Shown here: positions 44,879 through 48,730 of the stretch, in pieces
Layout of the letters: every line of letters starts with the position of its first letter
How positions within the stretch are numbered: position 1 is the first letter of the stretch
Assembly (NCBI GenBank): GCA_045617905.1
Contig: JAZLJO010000003.1
Coordinates: 3,988 to 67,987 of the forward strand
Direction of reading: 5' to 3'
DNA: 64,000 nucleotides
Source: Candidatus Enterousia sp.
GTDB lineage: Bacteria; Pseudomonadota; Alphaproteobacteria; Rs-D84
The notes under the pieces: generated by a model
Database searches by the model: none
What the model was told of the DNA's origin: nothing
What the model saw: the letters and a program-made list of their open reading frames with translations, nothing else
Made by a program: the position numbers and the translations under genes

Positions 44879-46186
44879 TTATTCTAAATTCAACAAACGA
44901 TATTTTGCACGCACACGGGCCTGAATTTCAATAATCGCATTGGCAAAATCTGCGATTGTGGCATTTGAATTTGACGATACAGATGAAAATATTCGTGTTG
45001 AATCCGATCCGGACACCTGTTCTTGTTTCAAAACCAATGGTGCCATTCGATTCAATTCTGATAATATCATATCATTAAAATTTGCAGTTTCATTATCTAT
45101 GTCCCAATAATAATCTGGATTAATTGAATCAGAAATTTTATTACGAACAATCAACCGTGGGGTAACAGATCCAGAAAAACCAACGGTTACCATCAATGCA
45201 TTTATACGGCCCAACACCATATCCAGGGTTTCATTAATACGCAATATTGCGGGTTTGTCCGAATTGCTGTCAACAGAAAAACCGGGCAACGTTAATTTTG
45301 AAATCCATAAATTTTTAACATTAAAACCGGAAAATTTTCCAACATCTTCTAATTTAAAAGATTTCACAACCTCCATCGACCGTCCATCCGCAGACAACAC
45401 ACCATTTACACTGGCATTTTTTGTTTGATAATTAGAATCAATCGCAGTTCTGTTTTGAAAAACAACCGTATCAACAACACCTGCACCAAATTTTAATCGA
45501 TCGTTTATATTTATCATTGTTGTATTTAATGATAAAACATTCTTTAAATCATGTTGTCCCAAATTTAATGCAACATTCATTGTGGCATCCATTACATCAT
45601 CCGATGGCAACCGCCATAAATATAACGCATTATCTTGATTTACGGTCGTTGTTTTAACAATCCCGTTTAATCCACCAATTCCTAAATCCACATTATCCAC
45701 ACGCCACGTACCATACGCACCATATGTCCGCTTTCCATCAACAAAACCAATATTTTGCCCACCAATTGCAACAATTTCACGGGTTCTGATTGGTGTGATA
45801 TCATCACTGTTATAAACAATCACCCCTTGTAAAGATGCCCGACCATCTGCGGTGCCCGATTTTAATATTCGTAATTGATAATTCGCATTATATTGAATAT
45901 TTATTCCGTATTCAGCCAACGCATCAATATTTACACGTGTGATTGTATTGCCAACCGTATTCAATAAATGTTCACGATTTTCTGCAATATAGCGTTCCAA
46001 TGCAACACGAACACTATCCATCTGTTGTGTAATGGCAATATTTTCTGCACGGCGCACAGTTCTGCGATGATATTGAATAACAAATGGCATTATAACCGTA
46101 ACCAACGCAACACTTAACAATAATTCAATTAACATATTTCCTGAATTTGAATTATTTTTCAAAAAATTAAATTTTTGTTTAATCAT
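44879..46186 (-). CDS. large prepilin-type N-terminal domain protein (P3)
   Basis: [33 protein letters not shown] is a class III signal with Glu at +5. ATGA overlap with P2. The track ORF extends to 46216. Confidence 0.7.
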   Translation of the reverse strand: [435 protein letters not shown]

Positions 46187-47394
46187 TGCAAATTCTCCGG
46201 CTGAAATGATTGCCAATTATCACCCATTATGATGTAAAATTCATCTTTGGACGGCACACTTGGGATTTCGGTCCGTGAAAATGTTATGCTGTGAAAATTT
46301 GGCAGTGACGCCGATGGATATACCCAAGTCCCGATTTTCAATGGTGCGGTGGCTGAATTTAGCAATTCTCCGGACACCGTCAAACCAAAATTTTCAAAAA
46401 ACAACAATTGTTCTGTTCGTAAAAATGGCACTGCAACACGATTGGCCTTAATACCAGAAAATCCGGAAATTGTTCGAACATAATCAGATTTAACAACAAA
46501 ATCTTTAGCAACATTTAATGTTTCTGAAATATTTGCACGATCTGCAATAACACGTCCAAATGTTGTATAGGTATTGCCGTTCATATTATCTGCATATATA
46601 TTGCGAAAACCAGACACATCACCAGAGACACGAATATTTTCAAATTGTGCATTTCCACCCTCTAAATTGGCACCTGACGAAAAATGTACCGTTCCCGCGA
46701 CCAATTCATCTGTTTCGACAAACGTTGTAATTGCCCCCTTGCCAAGAACACTTTTGGCATCAATTTTTCCAACATTTTCAATATTATGCCCAGACATATT
46801 CAAATCACGTTGCATAATATTTAAATCCAAATCACCAGATGCCGTGCGGTGCAAATAACGCGACGAATCTATTTCCGAAACATCGCGTGATATTTTGTAA
46901 ACTAAATATCCTGGTTCAAAATTTGGTACTGCAACCGCCCACGTATTTCCATAAACAATTCCATCCGTCATCACAACCGCTGCGGCTTCACCAATATGAC
47001 GTGCAATTTTATTTGCACGCACATAATTATCATCAATATCAAACGCTAAATAAACATCTGTAACAGATGAACCATTAACTTTATACTTATCAATAAATCC
47101 TGCAACCGCATCACTGGACATATTTTTTAAATCATCTGACGATAAATTTATTTGTGCCACATCAGGCCATGATTCTTGATTAAAACGAATAAAATTCAAT
47201 ACATTATCACGACTGGATACAATTTGATTGGCAACCGCTACATCACGAACAGCATCGTTGGCCCGTTGCATCTGACCATATAAAAACGGTGTTGCCATTG
47301 CAATAATCGCCAACGACAAAACTACCTCAGTCATAGAGGCGCCAAATTCCTGATTAATAAAAACAAATTTATTAATTACAGCCACTTTTCCCAT
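46183..47394 (-). CDS. large prepilin-type N-terminal domain protein (P2)
   Basis: [37 protein letters not shown], with Glu at +5. Confidence 0.7.
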   Translation of the reverse strand: [403 protein letters not shown]

Positions 47395-48730
47395 CCAATA
47401 AACATTGTTTTATATTTATTCTGTGCTCCAAACGTTGCCAAAAAACATATTGGCAAATCATATTTTGTACCACAGATTTCGCATTATATACACCGCCCAA
47501 ACCAGATATAATTGACTTACAATCAACTGTTTTTGAATTATCGGCCTGTGCATTTGCCAGAATTGCAAAACCTGCATTATCAACGGTATCCACTGAAATA
47601 TCCGGCAATACAGATGTTCCCGCAGGTCGAATATCCAACAATACCCCACCGGTTCGTCCCATAGATAATGCACGTGACGTTTGATTTCGTAATGTTATAT
47701 TGGATGCATTTACATAATCGACATCAATACCACTGGATGCCGAATATTCCAAATCATCCGTATTTATATAAACATCTTGCCCCCGCGCCGCATCCAAATA
47801 AGATTCAATATCCAACTGATTAACACTTAAATTTATACGACTGGTCACAACATTACCATGCACTTTCCAATCAATCGGCCCAACAAAATTCGTGTATCCC
47901 GCCGTCATCGCGAATTCATTTAACGCTGCATCATTGGCATTAAATGTTCCACCCTCCCCAAATCTCGACACTGTACGAGCTGTAACATTTTCCGCCACAA
48001 TATTACCACGCAATAACGATAACGCCGCTGTTCCATCATTGGTTTGAAATATTGTTTTATCTGCTGTAACCATTTTTATTACATTTTTTGAACGACGTCC
48101 ATTTTCAATTCCCGATATATTCAACATTCCAAATTCTGCTGTTTCAAATTCCCCATCCTGCCCAAACACATTTCCAACATTATTAACCGCAAAACCACCC
48201 ATATCCAAATCCGTCAAAAATGCATTATTAATTTCATCGACACCATTTCTGGACACAACATCTATATACCCCGATTCTAACGCCAATCCAACCGATAAGG
48301 CATCACCATCCGGCATGGCATAAAAACCGATACGACGCGCCAATTCTGCAATTTTTAATTGTGTTAAATTACCACCAATTATTTTCAAATATGCATTTAT
48401 CTGATTTTCTGTTTTATCTAAAACTAACACTATATCTTGTCCTAATGCGGTTTTTGGAACAAAACCCAATGGCAACCCATACGGTTCTAATAAATCAGAA
48501 AATCCATTTCCCCGAACAACAACCGTTCCATAATTCAATTTAGACGCATTTTCATGCACATAAATTCGTGCCGCCGTTTGTGCAACTTCGATCTGTTTTG
48601 TTGTCGCATACATTTGTGCATTCAAATTCCGTTCAACCAAATTTTTTGCAATGAACGGCACAAACATAAATACCAAGGTTAACGCCAACAATGCTTGTAA
48701 TAAAAAATTTCCACCTTGACGCGAATACAA
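47372..48730 (-). CDS. large prepilin-like N-terminal domain protein (P1)
   Basis: TTG start 9 nt after [32 protein letters not shown], with Gln instead of Glu at +5. Confidence 0.65.
   Translation of the reverse strand: [452 protein letters not shown]

What the first reader, a model, noticed from the sequence alone, without database searches (positions are those of the whole stretch)
44879..48730. Operon of three giant (400-450 aa) prepilin-signal proteins with a tail-fibre-like motif and no pilus machinery nearby
P1 ([12 protein letters not shown]...), P2 (...QEFG/ASMTE...) and P3 (...[10 protein letters not shown]...) each begin with a class III (type IV prepilin) signal and a hydrophobic alpha-1 helix. 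They are three times the size of normal pilins or pseudopilins. P1 has Gln rather than the usual Glu at +5. All three share a central motif L-(D/N)-(M/L)-x-G-x-x-(I/V/L)-x-N-V ([36 protein letters not shown]). In P2 and P3 it is preceded by YL(H/W)R. I recall this pattern from phage tail-fibre and tail-spike proteins (l.m.gn.I.Nl). Asn/Val/Gly-rich beta-like repeats follow. The P2 and P3 genes overlap by ATGA, and the P1 and P2 genes by 23 nt. The operon continues into a Zn-ribbon/DUF3426 membrane protein and a small secreted protein. No PilB/C/D/M-Q/T or Gsp genes are in the window. These could be tip adhesins of a type IV filament, or a distinct pilin-anchored fibre system.
Basis: partly seen in the sequence, partly recalled or inferred. 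Interest (0 to 1): 0.7.

Follow-up and report, generated by a model that had tools for sequence, protein, structure and literature searches.

The report
Three PilV-like pilus tip proteins
The three large "prepilin" genes are divergent relatives of PilV, the big tip adhesin of the thin type IVb mating pilus of IncI plasmids, kept as a fixed three-gene cassette in the chromosome of tiny-genome gut Alphaproteobacteria (Candidatus Enterousia), whose matching pilus motor genes lie elsewhere in the genome.

Summary
Three overlapping minus-strand genes (P1 452 aa, P2 403 aa, P3 435 aa) start with class III signals. Gly-1 is near-invariant across 120 homologues of each. Glu+5 is invariant in P2 and P3. 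P1 has Gln+5 in 119 of 120.

The interpretation needs correcting. The shared motif is the signature of the PilV / Shufflon_N family (PF04917), not a demonstrated tail-fibre motif. Profile comparisons link P2 and P3 to bona fide PilV, and P1 to P3. E. coli IncK PilV is 453 aa, so the size is normal for this family.

The organism is a Candidatus Enterousia relative (order Rs-D84, genomes under 1 Mb). The cassette P1-P2-P3, a ZitP-like protein and a small secreted protein keep one order in 80 of 80 species genomes. A PilS-like pilin sits beside dnaX.

The window has no pilus machinery, but the clade does. A PilO-PilP-ATPase-platform module in R64 gene order lies at a separate locus, and next to the pilin in two species. 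No secretin or prepilin peptidase was found. There is no shufflon.

Best reading: minor pilins of a chromosomal R64-type type IVb pilus, possibly a heterotrimeric tip complex for attaching to partner cells. This is a new variant of a known kind.

The parts
47372..48730 (-). P1: most divergent PilV-like minor pilin, 452 aa. The class III site G|NFLLQ has an invariant Gln at +5. There are four invariant C-terminal Cys.
   Evidence: ORF. It has 944 homologues. Gly is in 117/120 and Gln+5 in 119/120. hhalign of the P1 family against the P3 family gives probability 94%, E 1.2e-7. tblastn with E. coli PilV gives E 0.012, colinear over residues 27-235.
48695..48712 (-). P1 class III (prepilin) cleavage motif G|NFLLQ
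48173..48220 (-). P1 copy of the PilV-family motif ([16 protein letters not shown])
46183..47394 (-). P2: PilV-like minor pilin, 403 aa (400 aa from the GTG at 47385). Class III site G|ASMTE.
   Evidence: It has 1025 homologues. Gly-1 and Glu+5 are in 120/120. hhalign of the P2 family against the Shufflon_N protein P0470 gives probability 96.8%, E 3e-10, over 271 columns. In the AF2 model, residues 21-171 form a long alpha-1 helix plus beta-sheet with pLDDT 80-92. A weak Foldseek hit falls on a T2SS minor pseudopilin (9a1f_R, probability 0.90).
46768..46857 (-). P2 copy of the PilV-family motif ([30 protein letters not shown])
   Evidence: L181, H182, R183, N192, M194, R196, L198 and M200 are invariant in A1. 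The motif aligns with YLYR..[19 protein letters not shown] of P0470.
44879..46186 (-). P3: PilV-like minor pilin, 435 aa. Class III site G|NMLIE. Its ATG overlaps the P2 stop codon (ATGA).
   Evidence: It has 745 homologues, and P0241 is 100% identical. Some orthologues reach the Pfam Shufflon_N threshold (27.6 bits against 27.5). hhalign of the P3 family against E. coli PilV gives probability 94.7%, E 5.6e-8, over 217 columns. tblastn with PilV gives E 2.4e-5.
45533..45622 (-). P3 copy of the PilV-family motif ([30 protein letters not shown])
44346..44858 (-). ZitP-like bitopic protein: N-terminal CxxC...CxxC zinc ribbon, one TM helix, then a periplasmic DUF3426/FxLYD domain
   Evidence: Zn_ribbon_4 E 3.9e-5, DUF3426 E 0.019 and FxLYD_dom E 1.9e-8. 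It follows P3 in 80/80 species. The architecture matches Caulobacter ZitP, which is required for Tad pilus biogenesis (PMC5182063).
43877..44374 (-). Small secreted protein with a Sec-type signal (likely start MKRAYF at 44344) and no family
   Evidence: It is syntenic in 79/80 species.
50884..51345 (+). Candidate major pilin (153 aa), class III site G|RSLIE, weak PilS (type IVb pilin) similarity, immediately after dnaX
   Evidence: PilS E 0.0031 and N_methyl E 0.0046. Gly and Glu+5 are in 79/79 orthologues. It is present in 75/80 loci.
51300..52031 (+). OmpA-family peptidoglycan-binding lipoprotein co-transcribed with the pilin (likely start at 51351, lipobox LMAC). Any role in the pilus is only an inference.
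   Evidence: OmpA E 1.2e-11. YiaD-type OmpA lipoprotein E 6e-27. It is syntenic in 75/80 loci.

Best explanation
P1, P2 and P3 are three anciently diverged paralogues of the PilV (Shufflon_N) family. PilV is the large minor pilin and adhesin of R64/IncI-type type IVb 'thin' pili.

**Proposed mechanism.**
- Each protein is made with a class III signal and inserted in the inner membrane by its hydrophobic alpha-1 helix. A prepilin peptidase then cuts it after the invariant Gly.
- Each carries a pilin head domain (residues about 20-170) followed by the PilV motif and a beta-rich C-terminal domain.
- A chromosomal R64-type machine incorporates them into a filament built from the small PilS-like pilin encoded next to dnaX. 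That machine (PilO, PilP, PilQ-like ATPase, PilR-like platform) is encoded at a second locus.

**Inference on the trio.** I infer that the three proteins act together at the filament tip, as a priming and adhesive complex, rather than as interchangeable alternatives.
- They are translationally coupled.
- All three are kept, in the same order, in every species examined.
- They are evenly conserved along their length.
- P1, which never has Glu+5, would be the top-most subunit. It needs no salt bridge to a subunit above it, as in GspK of the T2SS tip complex (own knowledge).

**Likely biological role (inferred).** The pilus would attach these sub-1-Mb, partner-dependent gut bacteria to another cell. 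This parallels PilV-mediated mating-pair stabilisation, possibly serving the type IV secretion system these genomes also encode.

**Shown:** family membership, processing-site conservation, synteny, and existence of the machinery in the clade.

**Inferred:** tip location, hetero-oligomer, receptor and role.
For: **Family membership.**
- The P2-family profile search of 1.84 billion representatives retrieves Shufflon_N proteins (7 of 54 remote hits; P0470 scores 2.5e-35 against PF04917).
- hhalign of the P2 family against P0470 gives probability 96.8%, E 3e-10.
- hhalign of the P3 family against E. coli PilV gives probability 94.7%, E 5.6e-8.
- hhalign of the P1 family against the P3 family gives probability 94.2%.
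- P3 orthologues reach the Pfam threshold.
- P0470 matches annotated plasmid PilV adhesins.

**Size.** E. coli PilV is 453 aa.

**Processing site.** Gly-1 and Glu/Gln+5 are conserved.

**Pilin fold.** The AF2 model gives pLDDT 80-92 for residues 21-171. There is a weak match to a minor pseudopilin.

**Machinery.**
- In L071 the order is dnaX, pilin, OmpA, OmpH, PAP_PilO (PF06864, 8e-8), a 233-aa protein, T2SSE (1.6e-61), T2SSF.
- The 236-aa orthologue matches TIGR03021 PilP at 46 bits, above the 34.65 cut-off.
- The ATPase is 30% identical to IncK PilQ (E 6e-42).
- The module is conserved in 69-80 of 80 metagenome loci.

**Cassette.**
- It has the same order in 80/80 species.
- A similar trio occurs in a distant lineage, L165.

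**Lifestyle.** PMC12306168.

**PilV function.** PMC9045228.
Against: - No prepilin peptidase and no secretin were found in any fetched locus. tblastn with IncK PilU and PilN was negative, but only about 20 kb around two loci per genome could be seen.
- P1 links to PilV only transitively (P1 family against P0470, E 0.094).
- The C-terminal halves match nothing solved or viral, so an adhesin function is unproven.
- The C-termini are conserved rather than variable, unlike the receptor-binding ends of plasmid PilV.
- In the distant trio L165, the first gene keeps Glu+5. The Glu-less apex is therefore not a general feature of trios.
- The window's own genome was not shown to hold the PilO-R module. 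This is inferred from relatives.
Confidence: 0.72

Rival explanations
1. The three proteins are alternative adhesins. Each PilV-like protein is incorporated on its own and gives the pilus a different receptor specificity. Hard-wired paralogues would then replace the shufflon-generated C-terminal variants of IncI plasmids.
For: Plasmid PilV variants work this way (PMC9045228). No shufflon repeats or recombinase lie at the locus. The three C-terminal halves are unrelated to each other in BLASTP.
Against: The paralogues also differ throughout their N-terminal 'constant' region. All three are retained in fixed order in 80/80 species and are translationally coupled. P1 has lost Glu+5, which fits a fixed structural position better than an interchangeable one. 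The C-termini are as conserved as the N-termini.
Confidence: 0.2
2. They are pseudopilins of a short periplasmic endopilus, a T2SS-like piston or DNA-uptake pseudopilus, rather than parts of an external adhesive pilus.
For: No secretin was found near either locus. There are weak N-terminal hits to XpsI and ComGE, and the Foldseek hit is to a T2SS pseudopilin. A ComF-like gene lies in the window.
Against: The accessory proteins are of the type IVb kind (PAP_PilO, TIGR03021 PilP) in R64 order. The relatives are PilV adhesins, not GspH-K. Absence of a secretin is not established, because only parts of the genomes were visible.
Confidence: 0.06
3. This is the first reader's alternative: a self-contained pilin-anchored fibre system, or a phage tail-fibre derivative, that does not use type IV pilus machinery.
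For: The window has no machinery. The weak BFVD hits include tail proteins (best E 1.6e-3, TM 0.18).
Against: The clade does hold the machinery, adjacent to the locus in L071 and L039. No PHROG tail family matches. The motif is the PilV motif. There is chromosomal synteny with housekeeping genes in 80 species and no prophage context.
Confidence: 0.02

Closest known systems
PilV, the minor pilin and adhesin of the thin type IVb pilus of IncI1/IncI2/IncK plasmids (R64, R721, TP114); Pfam PF04917 Shufflon_N
   Same: - Size is alike (453 aa against 403-452 aa).
- Both have a class III signal with Gly-1 and Glu+5.
- The N-terminal pilin domain of about 230 aa is colinear.
- Both carry the LYR...LNxMxxxLxMxGxxLxN motif.
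- Both accompany a PilS-like pilin and PilO-PilP-PilQ-PilR type machinery.
   Different: - There are three fixed, deeply diverged paralogues instead of one gene with shuffled 3' ends.
- There are no sfx repeats and no Rci.
- The genes are chromosomal and vertically inherited in a whole order.
- The C-terminal domains lack the tail-collar/gp37-like module of plasmid PilV.
- One paralogue lacks Glu+5.
- The pilV-like genes are separated from the assembly genes.
PilV2 and the conjugative type IVb pilus of genomic islands (PAPI-1 of Pseudomonas aeruginosa; SPI-7 of Salmonella Typhi)
   Same: It is a chromosomally carried R64-type type IVb pilus with a PilV-family adhesin that recognises partner-cell surfaces (PMC5297154, listed and not read in detail).
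   Different: Those systems sit on mobile islands, with one pilV inside a complete pil operon. Here the genes are part of the core genome and occur as a trio.
Large type IVb minor pilins CofB/TcpB (own knowledge) and the T2SS tip complex GspK-GspI-GspJ
   Same: Each has a pilin domain plus large beta-rich C-terminal domains. They form trimeric assemblies at the filament tip that prime assembly. GspK lacks Glu+5, like P1.
   Different: No sequence or significant structural match was found. CofB and TcpB are homotrimers of one gene product. GspI and GspJ are small.
ZitP of Caulobacter crescentus (zinc ribbon, TM helix, DUF3426)
   Same: It has the same three-part architecture as the 170-aa protein after P3. 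The DUF3426 domain of ZitP is required for pilus biogenesis (PMC5182063).
   Different: ZitP is 311 aa and serves a Tad (type IVc) pilus through CpaM, and it is not encoded next to pilin genes. Here the DUF3426 hit is below Pfam's threshold. The distant trio L165 has no such neighbour.

Membership tests
Type IV pilin-like proteins (class III signal) | A short positively charged leader ending in Gly, then a hydrophobic helix of about 20 residues with Glu at +5 | tested here: met
   Gly-1 is in 117-120 of 120 homologues in each family. Glu+5 is in 120/120 for P2 and P3. P1 has Gln+5 in 119/120, a known exception type for tip subunits. The Pfam N_methyl model itself does not reach threshold.
Type IV pilin-like proteins (class III signal) | Pilin fold: a long N-terminal alpha-1 helix packed on an antiparallel beta-sheet | tested here: met
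   The AF2 model of P2 shows helix 21-75 followed by strands 80-171, with pLDDT 80-92. Foldseek support is only weak (9a1f_R, probability 0.90, E 0.15).
Type IV pilin-like proteins (class III signal) | Cleavage by a dedicated prepilin peptidase (A24 family) encoded in the genome | not testable with these tools
   No whole genome could be read. tblastn with IncK PilU against 164 loci was negative. That covers only two neighbourhoods of about 20 kb per genome.
PilV / Shufflon_N (PF04917) | Significant match to the N-terminal constant region, including the LYR...LNxM...MxGxxLxN motif | tested here: met
   P2 and P3 meet it by profile-profile comparison (probability 96.8% and 94.7%). Some P3 orthologues reach the Pfam gathering score. 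The window proteins themselves do not hit PF04917 in hmmscan. P1 is linked only through P3.
PilV / Shufflon_N (PF04917) | A 3' end embedded in a shufflon (sfx repeats plus Rci recombinase) that gives alternative C-termini | tested here: not met
   There is no multi-copy inverted repeat family in 43800-48900. No recombinase lies in the cassette in 80 species. This feature defines the plasmid shufflon subgroup, not the protein fold.
PilV / Shufflon_N (PF04917) | A C-terminal receptor-binding module related to phage tail fibres (tail collar / gp37 tip) | tested here: not met
   E. coli PilV hits 2xgf at 2e-16 and tail PHROGs at down to 1e-42. P1-P3 hit none.
R64-type type IVb pilus system | PilO, PilP, PilQ (ATPase) and PilR (platform) in that order, plus a PilS-type pilin | tested here: met
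   This is met in the clade but not in the window. See L071, L103, and 69-80 of 80 metagenome loci. The pilin matches PF08805 only weakly (E 0.003).
R64-type type IVb pilus system | PilN secretin, PilU prepilin peptidase, PilT lytic transglycosylase, PilL and PilM | tested here: inconclusive
   None was found in the window or in the 164 loci. The rest of each genome was not visible.
Phage tail fibre / tail spike | Match to a tail-fibre family or fold, in a prophage context | tested here: not met
   PHROGs gave no hit at E 0.1 or better other than noise. BFVD gave no hit at E 0.001 or better. The genes sit in housekeeping synteny.
T2SS minor pseudopilins GspH-K | Match to GspH/I/J/K models, beside GspC-M genes | tested here: not met
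   There is only an E 0.17 N-terminal hit to XpsI. No Gsp genes lie in the window.

The most novel reading that the evidence does not exclude
Candidatus Enterousia and its relatives in order Rs-D84 have turned an IncI-like mating apparatus into core cell biology. A chromosomal type IVb pilus would be capped by an obligate heterotrimer of three PilV-derived proteins, with the Glu-less P1 at the apex. It would grip a specific partner cell and dock the lineage's type IV secretion system. This would be the attachment organ of an alphaproteobacterial episymbiont, analogous to the pili of Patescibacteria.
Probability: 0.2. Interest if true: 0.75.

Novelty: new variant of a known kind. Interest (0 to 1): 0.5.

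Why it matters
Order Rs-D84, including Candidatus Enterousia, is a widespread but uncultured gut lineage found in humans, ruminants, horses, chickens and termites. Its genomes are under 1 Mb and its lifestyle is predicted to depend on a partner.

The one genomic survey I read mentions type IV pili only for another lineage. It describes the Rs-D84 surface proteins as hypothetical (PMC12306168).

This work shows that about 4 kb of every such genome encodes a conserved PilV-like trio, and that an R64-type pilus motor is present. That gives a concrete candidate for how these cells hold on to a partner. It also assigns roughly 2,700 'hypothetical' protein clusters to a family.

The result extends the PilV family from mobile elements with shufflons to a vertically inherited three-paralogue form. 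That form could show how large type IVb minor pilins are arranged at a pilus tip.

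Tried and rejected
- **Direct family scans.** Pfam and NCBIfam scans of P1-P3 gave only noise. 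PDB sequence searches found nothing.
- **First AF2 model.** It used 33 sequences and left the C-terminal half below pLDDT 50. Its Foldseek search was meaningless.
- **Second AF2 model.** It used 110 sequences and reached mean pLDDT 75.6. It still had no significant PDB or BFVD neighbour, so the C-terminal fold stays unassigned.
- **Tail-fibre idea.** Rejected for these proteins.
- **Shufflon idea.** Rejected.
- **Internal repeats.** None were found at DNA level.
- **Promoter and terminator scan.** Uninformative, with counts equal to shuffled controls.
- **Exact-match look-ups.** Window P2 and P0121 were not on record.
- **R64 accession.** AP005147 is absent from the plasmid collection, so an IncK plasmid was used instead.
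- **Broad alignment A3.** It was too diverse for the locus scan.
- **Five tandem membrane proteins at 30946-38144.** I guessed they were VirB6-like but could not support that.
- **Prepilin peptidase and secretin.** Not found in any fetched locus. The search tools could not read whole genomes.

Full report
**1. What is in the sequence**

The ORF listing shows five close-packed minus-strand genes followed by rluD:
- P1 at 47372..48730 (452 aa)
- P2 at 46183..47394 (403 aa)
- P3
- a 170-aa protein at 44346..44858
- a 165-aa ORF at 43877..44374

P3 really starts at the ATG at 46186, giving 435 aa identical to database protein P0241. That ATG overlaps the P2 stop codon as ATGA. P1 and P2 overlap by 23 nt, or by 14 nt if P2 uses the GTG that its 94% homologue uses.

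On the other strand lie a DUF4167 gene, dnaX, a 153-aa pilin-like gene (50884..51345), an OmpA-family lipoprotein, skp, lpxD and fabZ. The region has ordinary chromosomal composition for this window, about 38% G+C.

**2. The class III signals are real**

I aligned the 120 best homologues of each protein.
- P2 has Gly-1 and Glu+5 in 120/120.
- P3 has Gly in 118/120 and Glu+5 in 120/120.
- P1 has Gly in 117/120 and Gln+5 in 119/120, never Glu.
- The small pilin has Gly and Glu+5 in 79/79 orthologues.

The +1 residues (Asn, Ala, Asn, Arg) are not Phe. That is usual for type IVb pilins (own knowledge).

An AlphaFold2 model of P2 built on 110 sequences has mean pLDDT 75.6. Residues 21-171 score 80-92 and form a 55-residue helix followed by a beta-sheet, which is the pilin architecture. 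Foldseek gave only a weak match, to a minor pseudopilin in the XcpGHIJK model (probability 0.90, E 0.15).

**3. The three are paralogues**

- BLASTP of P2 against P3 gives E 4e-7 over about 250 residues.
- BLASTP of P1 against P3 gives E 3e-7 over the N-terminus.
- BLASTP of P1 against P2 is weak (E 0.098) but colinear through the motif.
- hhalign of the P1 family against the P3 family gives probability 94%, E 1.2e-7, over 238 columns.

The C-terminal halves are not detectably similar to each other. P1 alone has four invariant C-terminal cysteines.

**4. What family they belong to**

Pfam and NCBIfam give nothing significant for the window proteins. Some P3 orthologues, however, reach the gathering score of PF04917 Shufflon_N, the constant region of PilV.

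A profile of the P2 family searched against 1.84 billion representatives found 204 proteins. Of 54 remote hits, 7 carry Shufflon_N. One is P0470, which matches PF04917 at 2.5e-35 over the whole model. P0470 in turn matches plasmid genes annotated 'shufflon system plasmid conjugative transfer pilus tip adhesin PilV'.

Profile comparisons confirm the link.
- The P2 family against P0470 gives probability 96.8%, E 3e-10, over 271 columns.
- The P3 family against E. coli IncK PilV gives probability 94.7%, E 5.6e-8, over 217 columns.
- Plain tblastn of E. coli PilV against the window finds P3 (E 2.4e-5), P2 (E 0.003) and P1 (E 0.012), all colinear.

[31 protein letters not shown] aligns with [62 protein letters not shown] aligns with [30 protein letters not shown].

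E. coli PilV is 453 aa. 'Three times the size of a pilin' is therefore the normal size for this family.

**5. The tail-fibre recollection**

Plasmid PilV does contain tail-fibre material. Residues 334-410 of E. coli PilV match the receptor-binding tip of T4 gp37 (2xgf, 2e-16), a short tail fibre, and many tail-collar or tail-fibre PHROGs.

That module lies in the variable C-terminus, not at the motif. P1-P3 have no PHROG, PDB or BFVD match of any significance. P0470's motif region does weakly hit one PHROG of unknown function (1e-4). A distant phage link for the motif is therefore not excluded, but it is not shown.

**6. No shufflon**

The 5.1-kb region has no family of repeated inverted sites and no tandem repeats. 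No recombinase lies in the cassette in any species. Conservation is even along each protein, with no hypervariable C-terminus.

**7. The organism and conservation**

A scan of species-representative genomes found relatives of P2 in 214 genomes. They are titled Candidatus Enterousia, uncultured Rickettsiales or Alphaproteobacteria, and come from horse, ruminant, chicken and human gut. The closest is a horse-faeces MAG at 94% identity. One closed MAG is 958,618 bp.

PMC12306168 places Enterousia in order Rs-D84. It describes genomes under 1 Mb, without a TCA cycle, respiration or flagella, and proposes a partner-dependent lifestyle.

In the 80 loci fetched, P1, P2, P3 and the Zn-ribbon protein are present in the same order in 80/80. 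The small secreted protein and rluD are in 79/80. The pilin beside dnaX is in 75/80, and the other loci lack it, several of them lacking the whole dnaX side.

A far more distant lineage (L165, 34.6% G+C) also has a tandem trio of 469, 455 and 489 aa. Its second and third genes are P2-like and P3-like. The three-gene arrangement is therefore older than Enterousia. In that trio the first gene keeps Glu+5.

**8. The machinery**

The window has none. I ran tblastn of the IncK pil proteins against all fetched loci. It found a PilQ-like ATPase (30% identity, E 6e-42) and a PilR-like platform protein in two Enterousia species, L071 and L039, within 9 kb of the trio.

In L071 the order is dnaX, pilin, OmpA lipoprotein, OmpH, PAP_PilO (PF06864), a 233-aa protein, T2SSE, T2SSF.

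Using that ATPase as a query, 165 relatives at 73-91% identity turned up in metagenomes, on contigs up to 935 kb. Around them the following module is conserved: a small lipoprotein, a PilO-like protein, a 236-aa protein, the ATPase and the platform protein. It sits between lpxC and gyrB and is never within 10 kb of the trio.

The 236-aa protein matches TIGR03021, the R64-type PilP family, above its cut-off. PilO-PilP-PilQ-PilR is the gene order of the R64 pil operon, as seen in L004. A VirB4 gene lies 5 kb away, and a VirD4/TraG gene lies 7 kb from the trio in L001.

I found no secretin, prepilin peptidase or lytic transglycosylase. I could see only two neighbourhoods of about 20 kb per genome, so their absence is not established.

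**9. The downstream Zn-ribbon protein**

It has a CxxC...CxxC ribbon, one TM helix and a periplasmic DUF3426/FxLYD domain. This is the architecture of Caulobacter ZitP. The DUF3426 domain of ZitP is needed for Tad pilus biogenesis (PMC5182063).

It follows P3 in 80/80 species but not in L165. I treat a pilus role as plausible but not shown.

**10. Interpretation**

*Shown:*
- P1-P3 are PilV-family, pilin-like proteins with a conserved processing site.
- They form a fixed core-genome cassette.
- The clade has an R64-type type IVb assembly module and a PilS-like pilin.

*Inferred:*
- They are cleaved and incorporated as minor pilins.
- They act together at the tip.

The inference that they act together rests on four observations:
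- translational coupling
- strict co-retention
- even conservation along each protein
- an invariant Glu-less member, reminiscent of GspK at the top of the T2SS tip complex

The likely role is to prime assembly and bind a partner cell, as PilV stabilises mating pairs in liquid and in the gut (PMC9045228).

The main rival is three independent adhesins with different receptors. An endopilus or secretion role and a machinery-independent fibre are much less likely.

**11. Verdict**

This is a new variant of a known kind. It is a vertically inherited, shufflon-less, three-paralogue PilV system of a chromosomal type IVb pilus, in a poorly understood reduced-genome gut lineage.

I found no paper describing it. 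The proteins are annotated as hypothetical.

Noticed in passing
window 30946-38144: Five tandem multi-pass membrane proteins: 651 aa on the minus strand, then 439, 392, 477 and 436 aa on the plus strand. None has a Pfam or NCBIfam family. The layout recalls the VirB6-like arrays of Rickettsiales, but that is only a guess. Relatives carry VirB4 (L103 305-2719) and VirD4/TraG (L001 1018-3225) near the pilus loci.
   Followed up: partly
window 39625-42831: A 1068-aa cysteine-rich secreted protein with a C-terminal glycine-rich hydrophobic segment and no family. It lies downstream of rluD in 68 of 80 related species, so it travels with the pilin cassette.
   Followed up: partly
L165 8588-12838 (JGI 3300027985): A distant low-GC lineage has its own tandem trio of 469, 455 and 489 aa pilin-like proteins. 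The second is P2-like and the third is P3-like. All three have Glu+5, and recO follows instead of a ZitP-like gene.
   Followed up: partly
L167 10001-13291 (GCA_054285585.1) and about 25 proteins: Proteins of about 1000 aa carry the same N-terminal pilin module (G|S(M/L)M(V/I)EALAMLGL...). This one is encoded singly next to fliL/fliM in a flagellated alphaproteobacterium. These are a further uncharacterised branch of the family.
   Followed up: no
L004 15911-17272 (E. coli IncK plasmid pilV): The C-terminal part of plasmid PilV (residues about 334-410) is homologous to the receptor-binding tip of T4 long tail fibre gp37 and to tail-collar PHROGs. Plasmid pilus adhesins and phage fibres therefore share a module.
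   Followed up: partly
window 38379-39374: A RhuM-family plus Fic/DOC domain protein sits between the membrane-protein array and the Cys-rich protein. It may be a toxin or an AMPylating effector.
   Followed up: no
window 21526-22269: A ComF-like protein (double zinc ribbon plus phosphoribosyltransferase), a competence-associated family, in a genome that also has a type IV pilus.
   Followed up: no
window 1895-7153 and 58670-60922: Large proteins without any family (1047 aa, 290 aa, 750 aa) and a BspA-type leucine-rich-repeat protein (6059-7153). Much of this small genome's surface repertoire is unannotated.
   Followed up: no
L085-L164: The pilus ATPase is far more conserved across the clade (73-91% identity) than the PilV-like proteins (about 50-60%). 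It occurs in termite-gut, rumen, human-gut and sludge metagenomes.
   Followed up: no
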